This document shows positions 34,414 to 50,179 of a stretch of 64,000 nucleotides of DNA, piece after piece. The notes beneath the pieces were generated by a model, which saw only the letters and a program-made list of their open reading frames with translations, was not told the origin of the DNA and did no database searches. The translations under genes were made by a program, and so were the position numbers. The stretch covers positions 1-64,000 of the IMG/VR virus record IMGVR_UViG_2974731955_000001. One strand, given 5' to 3'. The stretch comes from a virus (lineage: Duplodnaviria; Caudoviricetes). Every line of letters starts with the position of its first letter. The stretch's first letter is position 1.

Positions 34414-34487
34414 ACTCCTATAGTTTAATGGAAAAACACTGGTAGTACATGCACCAGAGATTGATAGTTCGATTCTATCTAGGAGAT
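34414..34487 (+). tRNA. Atypical tRNA with 9-nt anticodon loop, identity unassignable
   Basis: CTCCTA/TAGGAG acceptor, GTTT-AATGGAA-AAAC D arm, CTGGT-AGTACATGC-ACCAG, GATAG-TTCGATT-CTATC. Confidence 0.75.
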
Positions 34488-34507
34488 CAAATTAAATCAT
34501 TCAAGTT

Positions 34508-36738: not shown

Positions 36739-37171
36739 TTCTCTTATACAAAGCCTTTGGTACGTATTGCCTGTGAAGGTAATACGTACAATCCTCAGGA
36801 GATGACAAGCATGTGGGGCGTAAGTAAATGCATATCTATATACTTAGCTGAATACGACAGAAAGAATATAGAAATACTCGTATTTGTGTTTATGATCGTG
36901 CAGATGTAAAAATCATGCCGTTAATAAGAATTGTACTGGCAATACAATTCTGCTACAACGTAAAATATGTTAGATAGCCAATTTTAAGAAGTTTTGTGTA
37001 AAAGTTTTTTAATATTTATTTTGCAGACATAAAACTTCACAACAATTCTTGTTATTAGTTACTCACAGTACAATGTGAGTTGTTGTTAATCAACAATCGT
37101 TCATTCACAAACCTTCCCCATAGTTGTACATATGGGGACATCCTCAAAGTTATAACTTAAATTTATCAAAA

Positions 37172-38779: not shown

Positions 38780-39350
38780 AATCAGAGCTGAGAGTGTCCG
38801 AGAGGCCTCTCAGTCTCTAATTATAGCTATATGCTGTAGTTAGAGATTAATGCCACGATTTAAAACTTCCGAATCGATAGTAGGAAAAATTACTCTGAAT
38901 TAACAGAGTACTCAAGAGCCTTGAGCCAGAGTGGAAACTTTGAGCCACTGATCATGTGCCTAAGATCATTACTATCACTTGAAAAGTAACAGGATGTTAC
39001 TGCTGAATCGCTAGAACCTTGAGTCAAGACCTAGTGATAGGCTTACGTAAGTAAGTTAAGTATAGTAATGATATCAAATCACACATAGAATTAGAGCTTT
39101 AAGCCGAAGTTGATGGTTATCGTCTTTTGATGGTAATTTAAAACTTCAAATTCTATAGATCTATCAAAGGCATTTACTATAGTAATAGAGAGCTTACATG
39201 CCTAAGTATTCTTTTTGAGGAGGTAAATATGTATGCAAGCCGCATTGCGCACTCTTACAGAGTAATACACTCGCAATAAAGAAGGATACTTACTATTACT
39301 ATAGATATTTTAAAGAGAGTAAAGAGAGAGATCTCTTTACTTTCACTATC
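38780..39350 (+). ncRNA. Putative structured RNA of about 570 nt
   Basis: No ORF; nested helices CATTACTAT/ATAGTAATG and CTATAGTAATAG/CTATTACTATAG, many hairpins, recurring (A/T)GCC motif. Confidence 0.55.
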
Positions 39351-39384
39351 CCAATTTGGGAATTTGTTTGGAATTTTTCAAATT

Positions 39385-39463
39385 CATAGTATAAGAACTG
39401 TACTATGTCTTATTAGGTTTATTGGAAACTATTAGGACGAGGGTTCGATTCCCTCCAACTCCA
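39385..39463 (+). ncRNA. ssrA: Permuted tmRNA, acceptor piece (5' limit approximate)
   Basis: ACTATTA-GGAC-GAGGG-TTCGATT-CCCTC-CAACTCC-A, a canonical tmRNA 3' end. Confidence 0.85.
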
Positions 39464-39567
39464 CATCTTTTTAAGTTTTAATTCGGTGATGTCACGCATG
39501 AATCATGGATAAAAGAATACGGCAGTAATCGCTTCCAGTACTATAAGTTCGTAATAGTATAAGGATA

Positions 39568-39615
39568 CCTGCCACCCACGGTCAGAAGCATAGAGGTTCG
39601 ACTCCTCTTGGCAAG
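39568..39615 (+). ncRNA. Truncated tRNA-like element in tmRNA intervening segment
   Basis: TGCCA/TGGCA stem plus AGAGG-TTCGACT-CCTCT T-arm. Confidence 0.45.
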
Positions 39616-39677
39616 GGTATAAACCACTCCTAGATTAAAAGCCGCAAAGCTTCCAAGCAGGTGTGAGGCCTGCATAA

Positions 39678-39806
39678 GGGGTTGCATGGATTTGACTAGT
39701 AGTGAAAGGTAAAATAGGTTCGATTTAAAATTAAATGGCAATAACTTTGTCACAGATTATACTGCGATAGGAGCGTAATCTAACGTGCTAACTACGAAAG
39801 TGAGGG
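39678..39806 (+). ncRNA. ssrA: Permuted tmRNA, coding piece; tag frame 39737-39778 GNNFVTDYTAIGA*
   Basis: GGGGTTG-CATGGATTTGAC-TAGTAGT canonical 5' end; pairs with the acceptor piece (G3.U70); TTAAAT-GGC resume context. Confidence 0.85.
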
Positions 39807-39878
39807 TATCTGATAGCTTAATGGTCAAAGCCTTGGATTTTACCAAGAGATTGTGGGTTCGAGTCCCACTCAGATAAC
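39807..39878 (+). tRNA. Atypical tRNA with 6-nt anticodon loop (Lys-UUU-like or pseudo)
   Basis: TATCTGA/TCAGATA acceptor, GCTT/AAGC D stem, CTTGG-ATTTTA-CCAAG, GTGGG-TTCGAGT-CCCAC. Confidence 0.75.
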
Positions 39879-50084: not shown

Positions 50085-50163
50085 GATCCACTCGTCTATT
50101 GGTTAGGACGCAAGATTTTCTTGAGTGAAAATTTGAAAAAAAGTTCGATTCTTTTGTGGATCA
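50085..50163 (+). tRNA. tRNA-Glu-like element with extended anticodon arm
   Basis: GATCCAC/GTGGATC-A acceptor, TCGTCTATTGGTTAGGACG D arm typical of tRNA-Glu, CAAGATTTTC-TTGAGT-GAAAATTTG, AAAAG-TTCGATT-CTTTT. Confidence 0.7.
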
Positions 50164-50179
50164 CATAAATTCCATAGCT

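What the first reader, a model, noticed from the sequence alone, without database searches (positions are those of the whole stretch)
39385..39806. Circularly permuted two-piece tmRNA in a crAss-like phage, with a non-canonical tag
Seen: the tmRNA 3' end (T-arm + CAACTCC-A, 39439-39463) lies upstream of the 5' end (GGGGTTG CATGGATTTGAC, 39678). They form a 7-bp acceptor stem with the G3.U70 alanine determinant and an A discriminator. TAGTAGT (39697) pairs with ACTATTA (39428) as helix 2. TTAAAT-GGC opens tag GNNFVTDYTAIGA*. Known: permuted ssrA occurs in Alphaproteobacteria, some cyanobacteria and some Betaproteobacteria; Bacteroidota ssrA is one-piece with tags ending ALAA. Unusual here: a 214-nt intervening segment holding a T-arm element, apparently no room for pseudoknot 1, a tag ending IGA, a tRNA-like element abutting the 3' end, and no smpB in the window. 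Inference: an independently permuted minimal phage tmRNA using host SmpB to rescue ribosomes, possibly changing the fate of tagged proteins. I cannot check whether it is already catalogued.
Basis: partly seen in the sequence, partly recalled or inferred. Interest (0 to 1): 0.92.

Follow-up and report, generated by a model that had tools for sequence, protein, structure and literature searches.

The report
Two-piece tmRNA gene of crAss-like phage
This gut phage carries a real, split ("two-piece") gene for tmRNA, the RNA that frees stalled ribosomes; the gene was already listed in public annotation, but its stripped-down build, its swappable spacer and its tRNA-like end piece have not been described in the papers I could search.

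Summary
Confirmed. ARAGORN and Rfam's permuted-tmRNA model (60.3 bits, cut-off 47) both call a circularly permuted tmRNA at 39385-39806. The order is acceptor piece (T-arm, CAACTCC-A), 214-nt spacer, coding piece (GGGGTTG..., tag GNNFVTDYTAIGA*), then a tRNA-like element.

About 150 related genes in crAss-like (Suoliviridae) contigs show compensatory changes in the acceptor stem, T stem and helix 2. They keep the tag frame, with variation mainly at third codon positions. It is therefore a real, selected gene. The complete 98.8-kb genome has no smpB.

The sighting is not new. GenBank annotates the gene in relatives. A 2022 paper's supplement lists 13 crAss phages as 'Permuted', including cr50_1, which has exactly this genome's length. 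This scan has also reported the family on other DNA.

I found these points in no paper I could search:
- a Bacteroidota-type tRNA-like domain, so probably a separate permutation event;
- no canonical pseudoknots (about 210 nt mature);
- a spacer swapped among 29 unrelated cassettes (15-603 nt: tRNA, tRNA relics, small ORFs, nuclease genes);
- group I introns in the T-loop of some relatives;
- a tRNA or tRNA relic abutting the 3' end in most relatives, probably the processing signal.

The IGA tag end is a singleton; relatives end LVA, LAA or IAA.

The parts
39349..39361 (+). Terminator-like hairpin upstream of the tmRNA gene (context; may mark the end of the preceding RNA unit)
   Evidence: Consensus scan. 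Function not tested.
39385..39412 (+). 5' end of the acceptor piece. It holds hairpin CATAGTA / TACTATG with loop TAAGAACTG, followed by TCTTA. It forms either a small H-type pseudoknot (TAAGA/TCTTA) or a loop that pairs with GGTTC of the coding piece.
   Evidence: The hairpin stem is fully paired in 39 of 40 group-1 relatives, with 15 different strand combinations. It also folds in the single-sequence prediction, z = -2.3. The second pairing is invariant, so it is untested.
39413..39438 (+). 3' strands of helix 2: TTTATT 39418-39423 (2b), ACTATTA 39428-39434 (2a), conserved TTAGG 39413-39417, and GGAC 39435-39438
   Evidence: RNAalifold on 112 unique relatives. Helix 2b columns switch between G-C and A-U; helix 2a columns take U-A, A-U and C-G.
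39439..39455 (+). T-arm, GAGGG-TTCGATT-CCCTC
   Evidence: Rfam alignment. The T stem shows up to 4 pair types per column across relatives, all paired in 112 of 112.
39456..39463 (+). Acceptor 3' strand CAACTCC plus discriminator A. A C follows but no full CCA, so CCA must be completed after cleavage.
   Evidence: Eight acceptor-stem variants in relatives each have their exact complement next to a T-arm. All 149 spacers start with C.
39464..39578 (+). Spacer (intervening sequence), first part: 115 nt found only in this genome
   Evidence: Absent from cr10_1, whose spacer starts at the equivalent of 39579. A 20-mer from it has no exact match in IMG/VR. No Rfam match. Folding energy is not unusual.
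39579..39677 (+). Spacer, second part: a 99-nt cassette shared with cr10_1-type phages
   Evidence: cluster of 7 loci.
39568..39616 (+). tRNA-relic minihelix inside the spacer: CCTGCCA / TGGCAAGG acceptor-like stem (one bulge) on the T-arm-like hairpin AGAGG-TTCGACT-CCTCT (39592-39608)
   Evidence: Read from the sequence. The T-like hairpin folds. Other cassettes also begin with a T-arm-like hairpin, and cr114_1 has an intact tRNA-His here.
39678..39696 (+). 5' end of the coding piece: acceptor 5' strand GGGGTTG (39678-39684) and the D-loop analogue CATGGATTTGAC
   Evidence: The GGATTTGAC motif is shared with Bacteroidales one-piece tmRNAs.
39697..39721 (+). 5' strands of helix 2: TAGTAGT 39697-39703 (2a), GGTAAA 39708-39713 (2b), conserved ATAGG 39714-39718, and GGTTC 39717-39721 (distal pairing)
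   Evidence: Distal pairing GGTTC/GAACT here corresponds to GGTCAAT/ATTGACT in cr60_1-type genes.
39737..39778 (+). Tag reading frame GGC...TAA, peptide (A)GNNFVTDYTAIGA
   Evidence: ARAGORN. Relatives give 20 peptides from 39 coding sequences in 148 genes. In the six-codon core all six third positions vary; first and second positions rarely do.
39779..39806 (+). 3' tail of the coding piece, with the conserved motif GTGCTAAC-TACGAAAGTGAGGG
   Evidence: Conserved in group-1 relatives. No stable fold of its own. Role unknown.
39807..39877 (+). tRNA-like element abutting the coding piece: a perfect cloverleaf with a 6-nt anticodon loop (ATTTTA). Proposed RNase P handle that sets the 3' end of the coding piece.
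   Evidence: Rfam tRNA 54.4 bits. ARAGORN 'tRNA-???' with a two-base anticodon. Fold z = -3.1. A tRNA or tRNA relic sits 15-58 nt after the stop codon in 118 of 147 relatives, in forms from true tRNA-Lys/Leu to 40-nt minihelices.

Best explanation
The locus is a functional, circularly permuted ssrA gene of a crAss-like phage. The phage is of the family Suoliviridae, subfamily Boorivirinae, and very probably cr50_1 (Cohcovirus hiberniae).

Proposed mechanism, all inferred:
1. One precursor is transcribed through acceptor piece, spacer, coding piece and tRNA-like element.
2. Host tRNA-processing enzymes cut it. RNase P cuts at G39678, giving the 5' end of the coding piece, and at 39807, giving its 3' end.
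3. A 3' nuclease trims after A39463, and the CCA-adding enzyme completes the CCA.
4. The 214-nt spacer is discarded, or its tRNA-relic is released.
5. The two pieces stay together through the 7-bp acceptor stem and helix 2. They form a pseudoknot-poor tmRNA of about 210 nt.
6. Host AlaRS charges it through G3.U70 and A73. Host SmpB and EF-Tu bring it to stalled ribosomes.
7. Translation resumes at GGC 39737 and adds AGNNFVTDYTAIGA.

Likely benefit (inferred): the ribosome pool stays free while host and phage mRNAs are being cut during infection, and truncated products are marked.

Shown here: the gene anatomy, covariation in its helices, selection on the tag frame, and the absence of smpB. Every processing, charging and tagging step is inferred.
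For: Detection
- ARAGORN calls a permuted tmRNA. Rfam RF04321 scores 60.3 bits against a cut-off of 47.

Relatives
- GenBank cr10_1, cr60_1, cr114_1 and Chryseobacterium phage MA9V-3 carry the homologous gene, annotated as tmRNA.
- 161 related loci were collected (window, IMG/VR, GenBank); 149 could be parsed.

Structure
- Eight acceptor-stem variants are each exactly complementary, with G3.U70 and A73 kept.
- T-stem columns take up to 4 pair types, and all 112 unique sequences stay paired. Helix 2a and 2b show G-C/A-U swaps.

Tag
- The tag frame is kept across 3-nt indels. All third positions of the FVTDY(T) core vary, while positions 1 and 2 rarely do. Overall pN/pS is about 0.5.

Genome and host link
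- The complete genome (direct terminal repeats, 100% by CheckV) has no SmpB.
- The 5' motif, resume context and tag start match Bacteroidales tmRNAs, so host factors should fit.

Processing
- A tRNA or tRNA relic lies 15-58 nt after the stop codon in 118 of 147 relatives.
- The spacer can be as short as 15 nt, so it is dispensable for the tmRNA itself.
Against: - There are no expression, processing, charging or tagging data. The phage is uncultured and its host is not known.
- There is no pseudoknot 1. From my own knowledge, this element matters for tagging in E. coli, although it can be replaced by simpler structures.
- The 5' end of the acceptor piece and the promoter are undefined. A terminator-like hairpin lies just upstream.
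- This genome's tag ending (IGA) is a singleton among 148 relatives. It could be a weaker degradation signal or a sign of drift.
- Some relatives have non-canonical T-loops, so constraints on the tRNA-like domain may be looser than in cellular tmRNAs.
- My parsing of relatives required acceptor complementarity. That count is therefore partly by construction, although each complement does lie directly next to a T-arm.
Confidence: 0.8

Rival explanations
1. Decoy or inhibitor. The RNA binds host SmpB, AlaRS or EF-Tu, or otherwise blocks host trans-translation, without tagging anything. This is what has been proposed for the tRNA-like-domain-only RNA of mycobacteriophage DS6A.
For: Phage RNAs consisting of only a tRNA-like domain exist and are discussed as SmpB titrators (PMC4131195; PMC11915505). 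This gene lacks pseudoknot 1, and some relatives have odd T-loops.
Against: A decoy needs no reading frame. Here the tag frame, resume context and stop codon are kept in 148 relatives, with third-position variation and in-frame indels.
Confidence: 0.08
2. In this particular phage the tmRNA is decaying. The locus persists mainly as a tRNA-style processing scaffold that expresses and releases what lies in and after it: the spacer cassette and the tRNA-like RNAs.
For: The spacer is one of the longest non-coding ones (214 nt) and holds a tRNA relic. The tag end IGA is a singleton. The downstream tRNA has a 6-nt anticodon loop. First-stage notes report similar tRNA-like elements elsewhere in this genome (not tested here beyond 39568 and 39807).
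Against: All tmRNA identity elements are intact in this genome: a 7-bp acceptor stem with G3.U70, A73, a canonical T-arm, helix 2, the resume context and an open tag with a stop. The Rfam score here is among the highest in the family.
Confidence: 0.08
3. Not a gene of the phage's own: either a false positive of the finders or a scrap of host ssrA picked up at an integration site.
For: tmRNA genes are common integration sites, and fragments of them occur in prophage-derived contigs. The T-arm/acceptor 29-mer is found in many unrelated IMG/VR contigs.
Against: Both halves are present, in permuted order, and complementary to each other. They are conserved with covariation in about 150 contigs of about 100 kb from three Suoliviridae subfamilies, at a syntenic position next to the same ribozyme/RAGATH RNAs and a sigma-factor gene. 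Host genes are one-piece, about 397 nt, and differ outside the termini.
Confidence: 0.02

Closest known systems
Permuted tmRNA genes listed or annotated in crAss-like phages: GenBank cr10_1 MT774382, cr60_1 NC_055891 and cr114_1 NC_055897; Table S1 of Buchholz et al. 2022, PMC9004378, which lists 13 'CrAssphage' genomes including cr50_1, 98,826 bp
   Same: The same gene family, and for cr50_1 very probably the same genome (identical length). All were found by ARAGORN as 'Permuted'.
   Different: Those sources only list or annotate the gene. I found no description of its structure, origin, spacer variability, introns or 3' tRNA-like element.
Two-piece tmRNAs of Alphaproteobacteria (Caulobacter; Keiler, Shapiro and Williams 2000), a betaproteobacterial lineage and cyanobacteria (Sharkady and Williams 2004); Rfam RF01849, RF01850, RF01851, merged tRNA-domain model RF04321
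   Same: The gene order is 3' half, spacer, 5' half. The tRNA-like domain is formed in trans. Maturation by tRNA-processing enzymes is assumed. The gene passes RF04321.
   Different: It does not reach the lineage models: beta 28-48 bits against a cut-off of 84, cyano 9.7 against 70, and no alpha match listed. The 5' motif, resume codon and tag start are of the Bacteroidota type. It is much shorter and lacks pseudoknot 1.
Phage-encoded two-piece tmRNA of marine myophages (OM43 phage Melnitz and pelagimyophages; PMC9004378)
   Same: A phage-borne permuted ssrA without a phage smpB, proposed to act early in infection.
   Different: Melnitz's gene is of the alphaproteobacterial type and carries a glutamine riboswitch. 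This one is of the Bacteroidota type, has no riboswitch match, and is followed by a tRNA-like element.
One-piece tmRNA of Bacteroidales (about 397 nt, tags GENNYALAA, GNNEYALAA and similar)
   Same: A nearly identical 5' end (GGGGTTGACTGGATTTGAC against GGGGTTGCATGGATTTGAC), an identical T-arm and acceptor 3' half, the resume context AAATTAA(T/A)T-GGC, and a tag starting G-(E/N)-N.
   Different: Standard gene order, four pseudoknots, and a tag of 9 residues ending ALAA.
Intron-form tmRNA genes (group I intron in the T-loop; Williams 2002; PMC11915505)
   Same: Relatives of this gene (cr55_1, cr1_1 and 8 IMG/VR loci) have a group I intron at T-loop position 7, after a U and ending in G.
   Different: In those relatives the interrupted gene is also permuted, a combination absent from that catalogue's list of forms. 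The endonuclease gene is on the opposite strand. The window's own gene has no intron.
tRNA-like 3'-end handles such as mascRNA on MALAT1, and the tRNA punctuation model of mitochondrial transcripts (recalled from my own knowledge, as a lead only)
   Same: A tRNA-shaped element directly after a functional RNA, where RNase P cleavage would create that RNA's 3' end.
   Different: Not tested here. In this family the element ranges from apparently normal tRNAs to anticodon-less minihelices.

Membership tests
tmRNA, permuted gene form (Rfam RF04321) | Score at or above the curated gathering threshold | tested here: met
   60.3 bits against 47, full-length model match 39410-39778. Relatives score 47-62 bits.
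tmRNA, permuted gene form (Rfam RF04321) | 7-bp acceptor stem formed by a 3' strand lying upstream of the 5' strand, with G3.U70 and discriminator A73 | tested here: met
   CAACTCC-A at 39456-39463 and GGGGTTG at 39678-39684. Eight covarying variants in relatives.
tmRNA, permuted gene form (Rfam RF04321) | T-arm with a T-loop of the TTCGANN type next to the acceptor 3' strand | tested here: met
   GAGGG-TTCGATT-CCCTC at 39439-39455. The T stem covaries and is paired in 112 of 112.
tmRNA, permuted gene form (Rfam RF04321) | Helix 2 joining the tRNA-like domain to the rest, formed between the two pieces | tested here: met
   2a TAGTAGT/ACTATTA and 2b GGTAAA/TTTATT. Compensatory G-C/A-U changes across relatives.
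tmRNA, permuted gene form (Rfam RF04321) | Short tag reading frame with a resume codon and a stop, conserved as a peptide | tested here: met
   39737-39778. Relatives give 20 peptide variants sharing G-N-x-(x)-[FY]-[VI]-[TM]-[DN]-Y-[TS]...A. Third-position variation and in-frame indels.
tmRNA, permuted gene form (Rfam RF04321) | Cleavage into two pieces, CCA completion, alanylation, SmpB binding and tagging | not testable with these tools
   Needs RNA-end mapping and biochemistry.
tmRNA (general) | Pseudoknot 1 between helix 2 and the resume codon | tested here: not met
   Only about 15-23 nt lie between the helix-2 strands and GGC 39737, against about 55 nt with a pseudoknot in Bacteroidales. 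This is not a feature of the RF04321 model, so it does not bar membership.
tmRNA (general) | Partner protein SmpB encoded with it | tested here: not met
   No PF01668 match in the complete phage genome. As in other phage tmRNAs, the host's SmpB is presumed.
[quoted passage not shown] | Score at or above each family's gathering threshold | tested here: not met
   Window: cyano 9.7 against 70, and no alpha or beta match listed. Relatives: beta 28.5-48.5 against 84, over the tRNA-domain part only. Overlapping lower-scoring clan matches are suppressed by the tool, so alpha scores were not seen.
tRNA (Rfam RF00005), for the element at 39807-39877 | Cloverleaf scoring above the threshold | tested here: met
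   54.4 bits against 29. The cloverleaf is the minimum-energy fold, z = -3.1.
tRNA (Rfam RF00005), for the element at 39807-39877 | 7-nt anticodon loop presenting a three-base anticodon | tested here: not met
   The loop is 6 nt (ATTTTA) closed by G-C. ARAGORN reports 'tRNA-???' with a two-base anticodon. Homologues range from tRNA-Lys(TTT) to tetraloop and armless forms.

The most novel reading that the evidence does not exclude
Suoliviridae crAss-like phages carry a fourth, independently permuted tmRNA lineage. It derives from a Bacteroidota one-piece ssrA and is stripped of the canonical pseudoknots, at about 210 nt. The parts that tRNA-processing enzymes cut away have become a modular slot. 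The spacer is exchanged among at least 29 unrelated cassettes: tRNA genes, tRNA relics, small ORFs and free-standing nuclease genes. The T-loop takes up group I introns. A tRNA or tRNA relic is kept at the 3' end as the cleavage signal. The conserved phage-specific tag core (FVTDY) would then give rescued proteins a fate different from host-tagged ones.
Probability: 0.4. Interest if true: 0.65.

Novelty: new variant of a known kind. Interest (0 to 1): 0.5.

Why it matters
- crAss-like phages are among the most abundant viruses of the human gut. A conserved phage tmRNA means they take a hand in the ribosome rescue of their Bacteroidales hosts.
- A naturally selected tmRNA of about 210 nt without the canonical pseudoknots is a compact test case for what trans-translation really needs.
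- The swappable spacer and the tRNA-like end piece suggest that phages use tRNA-processing enzymes as a general way to express and release extra RNAs and small genes.
- For annotation, finders miss the intron-split relatives, and they mislabel the 3' tRNA relics.

Tried and rejected
1. Link to stop-codon reassignment. I asked whether suppressor tRNAs might cause read-through and so a need for rescue. The genome has no suppressor tRNA, and ORF coverage does not rise when TAG or TGA is read as sense. Rejected.
2. Known ribozyme or riboswitch in the spacer. Rfam at E up to 10 on the window region, and at E up to 1 on eight loci representing eight spacer classes, found none.
3. Spacer as an unusually stable structure. 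z-scores of -0.3 to -1.2 are not significant.
4. Homologues of the 115-nt unique spacer part. There is no exact 20-mer match in IMG/VR. A 10-nt repeat shared with the acceptor piece's 5' end is within chance expectation.
5. The T-arm/acceptor 29-mer as a marker of host origin. Rejected, because the same 29-mer occurs in alpha-type and many other phage tmRNAs.
6. A one-piece crAss tmRNA (cr106_1, listed as 'linear' in PMC9004378) as a possible ancestor. A BLAST search of the phage collection with a host tmRNA did not find it.
7. Fetching the cr50_1 GenBank record to see its own annotation. It is not in the collection. The identification therefore rests on the identical genome length and on the relatives' taxonomy.
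8. Splice boundaries of the second intron type (L291 group). They could not be fixed by the -1 U / terminal G rules.
Full report
**What is there**

ARAGORN calls a permuted tmRNA at 39374-39869 with tag GNNFVTDYTAIGA*. Rfam's merged permuted-tmRNA model RF04321 matches 39410-39778 over its full length at 60.3 bits (gathering score 47, E = 3.5e-9 for the window).

The gene order is as follows.
- Acceptor piece. A 5' hairpin at 39385-39407. The 3' strands of helix 2 at 39418-39434. GGAC. The T-arm at 39439-39455. CAACTCC-A at 39456-39463.
- Spacer of 214 nt, 39464-39677.
- Coding piece. GGGGTTG at 39678-39684. The GGATTTGAC motif. The 5' strands of helix 2 at 39697-39713. The tag frame at 39737-39778. 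A 28-nt tail to 39806.
- A tRNA-like element at 39807-39877.

The window belongs to a complete virus record of 98,826 bp with terminal repeats. No frame of that record matches SmpB.

**Is it a real, selected gene?**

Relatives were collected from three sources: GenBank phages, 39 IMG/VR loci found with the 5'-end motif, and 115 more found with an acceptor-piece motif of the cr60_1 type. Of 161 loci, 149 could be parsed into acceptor 3' strand, spacer and 5' strand.
- Eight different acceptor stems occur (GGGGCAT, GGGGCTG, GGGGTAT, GGGTGTG, GGGGCTA, GGGGATG, GGGGTTG, GGGGGTG). Each has its exact complement lying directly after a T-arm, and each keeps G3.U70 and A73. My parser demanded the complement, so that count is partly by construction. 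Its position next to a T-arm was not demanded.
- An RNAalifold consensus of 112 unique re-joined sequences recovers the acceptor stem, the T stem and helix 2. T-stem columns take up to four pair types and are paired in all 112 sequences. Helix 2b columns switch between G-C and A-U (76/36 and 17/95). Helix 2a columns take U-A, A-U and C-G.
- The 5' hairpin of the acceptor piece is fully paired in 39 of 40 group-1 genes, with 15 strand combinations.
- The tag frame is kept in 148 genes, giving 20 peptides from 39 coding sequences. The consensus is G-N-x-(x)-[FY]-[VI]-[TM]-[DN]-Y-[TS]-x-[LIV]-x-A.
- In the six-codon core all six third positions vary, often among three or four bases. First and second positions vary little and conservatively. 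Length differences ahead of the core come in whole codons.

Together this shows selection on both the RNA structure and the peptide.

**Already catalogued**

GenBank annotates the homologous gene as 'transfer-messenger RNA, SsrA' in cr10_1, cr60_1, cr114_1 and Chryseobacterium phage MA9V-3. Table S1 of Buchholz et al. 2022 (PMC9004378) lists 13 'CrAssphage' genomes with an ARAGORN 'Permuted' tmRNA. One of them is cr50_1 at 98,826 bp, exactly the length of this genome. NCBI taxonomy places cr50_1 in Suoliviridae, Boorivirinae, Cohcovirus. The nearest GenBank relatives of the window are also Boorivirinae.

I could not fetch the cr50_1 record itself, so the identification is an inference.

Full-text searches found no paper that analyses the crAss tmRNA. 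This scan has reported the same family on other DNA, including intron-split forms, and has reported cargo in the spacers of other phage tmRNAs. I treated those notes as leads and re-tested the points below on my own loci.

**Origin**

The T-arm/acceptor 29-mer is universal among tmRNAs, including alpha-type phage genes, so it says nothing about origin. Three other characters point to Bacteroidota.
- The 5' motif with TTTGAC instead of TTCGAC. Fifty-two carried Bacteroidota-type tags (GENNYALAA and the like); the other two, in Bacteroides contigs, had mis-assigned tags.
- The resume context AAATTAA(T/A)T followed by a GGC codon.
- The tag starting G-(E/N)-N.

Alpha-type permuted phage genes in IMG/VR have TTCGAC and tags starting ANDE. 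The lineage-specific Rfam models are not reached. The most economical reading is a separate permutation of a Bacteroidota ssrA. Convergence on host factors is the alternative, and no tree was made.

Other IMG/VR phage contigs hold permuted genes with TTTGAC and unrelated tags. The event may therefore be older than Suoliviridae.

**Architecture**

The two mature pieces would total about 210 nt, against about 397 nt in Bacteroidales. Nothing corresponds to pseudoknots 2 and 3.

The 5' end of the acceptor piece may form one small pseudoknot. In the cr60_1 group two interleaved stems both covary. In the window the hairpin stem covaries but its second pairing (TAAGA/TCTTA) is invariant. That pairing also competes with a pairing of the loop (GAACT) to GGTTC at 39717-39721, which matches GGTCAAT/ATTGACT in the cr60_1 group. 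This is unresolved.

**The spacer**

Across 149 genes the spacer ranges from 15 to 603 nt and falls into 29 clusters with no sequence similarity to each other. The same cluster occurs behind different acceptor-stem types, so cassettes are exchanged between genes. Every spacer begins with C. Contents include:
- an intact tRNA-His (cr114_1 and two IMG/VR loci);
- small ORFs of 38 and 100 codons;
- a free-standing endonuclease VII/HNH-like gene on the opposite strand (L276);
- several non-coding cassettes that begin with a T-arm-like hairpin.

The window's spacer is the 99-nt cassette of cr10_1 (39579-39677) preceded by 115 nt seen nowhere else. Across that junction lies a tRNA relic, an acceptor-like stem on a T-arm-like hairpin at 39568-39616. 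No Rfam family matches any cassette tested, and folding energies are unremarkable.

The tmRNA catalogue paper called a tRNA gene inside a spacer 'unique' (PMC11915505). Here it is one of many kinds of cargo.

**Introns in relatives**

In cr55_1, cr1_1 and eight IMG/VR loci the T-loop of the permuted gene is split after TTCGAT by a group I intron of about 705 nt. Rfam RF00028 scores 58-69 bits. The boundaries follow the -1 U / terminal G rules, which puts the intron at loop position 7. An HNH endonuclease gene lies on the opposite strand (Pfam PF01844, E = 2e-13).

ARAGORN and the GenBank annotation miss the tmRNA in these phages.

Five further loci have a different intron nearer the 5' side of the loop, with an endonuclease VII-like gene. 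I could not fix its boundaries.

The catalogue lists standard, intron and permuted forms but no combined form. The window's own gene has no intron.

**The 3' element**

The element at 39807-39877 is a perfect cloverleaf (Rfam tRNA 54.4 bits; z = -3.1), but its anticodon loop has six bases. The homologous position holds different forms in relatives:
- tRNA-Lys(TTT) in Culoivirus;
- tRNA-Leu in cr60_1;
- six-base loops (ATTTTA, ATATTA, ATGTTA, GTCTTA) in many genes of both sequence groups;
- a tetraloop hairpin in cr10_1;
- 40-51-nt minihelices without an anticodon arm in cr114_1, L031 and L374;
- 122-nt forms.

With relaxed criteria, a T-arm plus acceptor stem starts 15-58 nt after the stop codon in 118 of 147 genes. 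The acceptor/T-arm half is what is kept, and that is the half RNase P recognises. I therefore propose, as an inference, that the element's conserved job is to define the 3' end of the coding piece.

**The tag**

The family's tags end in LVA, IAA, LAA, GAA, AVA or CVA. Only this genome has IGA, one codon shorter than the GAA type. From my own knowledge, C-terminal LAA and LVA are good ClpXP signals in E. coli. Nothing is known for Bacteroidales, so the fate of proteins tagged by this phage is open. The conserved feature that sets the family apart from its hosts is the inserted FVTDY(T) core.

**Verdict**

The locus is a real and selected permuted tmRNA gene, correctly read by the first stage. 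As a sighting it is already public, and this scan has found it repeatedly. Its lineage, minimal build and modular surroundings are undescribed in the papers I could search. All functional steps (processing, charging, tagging) remain inferred.

Noticed in passing
window 36791-36918 and 38788-38954: A Hatchet ribozyme (82 bits, cut-off 51) and a RAGATH-22 RNA (155.6 bits, cut-off 120.3) lie just upstream of the tmRNA. An ORF-free stretch at 38955-39350 lies between RAGATH-22 and the tmRNA. Relatives show the same non-coding RNA island (Hatchet, RAGATH-9 or -22, then tmRNA).
   Followed up: partly
L002 2199-2903 (cr55_1), L003 (cr1_1), L004, L011, L014, L026, L035, L039, L040, L041: The permuted tmRNA gene is also split in its T-loop (position 7) by a group I intron of about 705 nt, with an HNH endonuclease gene on the opposite strand. 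GenBank and ARAGORN miss the tmRNA in these phages.
   Followed up: yes
L291, L349, L367, L372, L378: A second intron type of about 1 kb, with an endonuclease VII-like ORF on the opposite strand, lies nearer the 5' side of the T-loop. No boundary pair satisfies both the -1 U and the terminal G rule while restoring a canonical loop.
   Followed up: partly
L276 5061-5636 (also L301 and others of that cluster): A free-standing endonuclease VII/HNH-like gene (191 aa, phrog_3322, E = 4e-26) sits on the opposite strand inside the 601-603-nt spacer of a permuted tmRNA gene. It is related to the endonuclease inside the second intron type.
   Followed up: partly
L274 1542-1614 (cr114_1), L357, L388: An intact tRNA-His(GTG) gene lies inside the tmRNA spacer. 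The tmRNA catalogue paper called such a case 'unique'.
   Followed up: partly
L276, L284, L301 and L277, L314, L320 and others: tmRNA tRNA-like domains with non-canonical T-loops. One type is GGGGC-TATCGTAT-GCCCC. The other is CGCGG-GGCAGTA-CCGCG, which goes with acceptor stem GGGTGTG/CACATCC and a spacer of only 15-17 nt.
   Followed up: no
window 34414-34488 and 50085-50164: ARAGORN calls tRNA-Cys with anticodon ACA and an 80-nt tRNA-Ser(TGA). First-stage notes group these with other tRNA-like elements spread along the early region. I did not examine them.
   Followed up: no
whole genome G000: There is no sign of stop-codon reassignment and no suppressor tRNA. Long-ORF coverage is unchanged when TAG or TGA is read as sense.
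   Followed up: yes
L184, L220, L221, L169, L198, L190, L257 (IMG/VR): Other uncultured phages carry permuted tmRNA genes with the Bacteroidota-like TTTGAC 5' motif but unrelated tags (GKTINFSNAPLRAVA, GEQVELAMAA, AKVITLGQPLRMAA, GKVVNMNQVGMRKAA).
   Followed up: no
window 39315-39344: A conserved inverted repeat (GAGAGTAAAGAGA / TCTCTTTACTTTC) lies upstream of the tmRNA. It is also present, with compensating changes, in cr10_1 and cr55_1. Its role is unknown.
   Followed up: no
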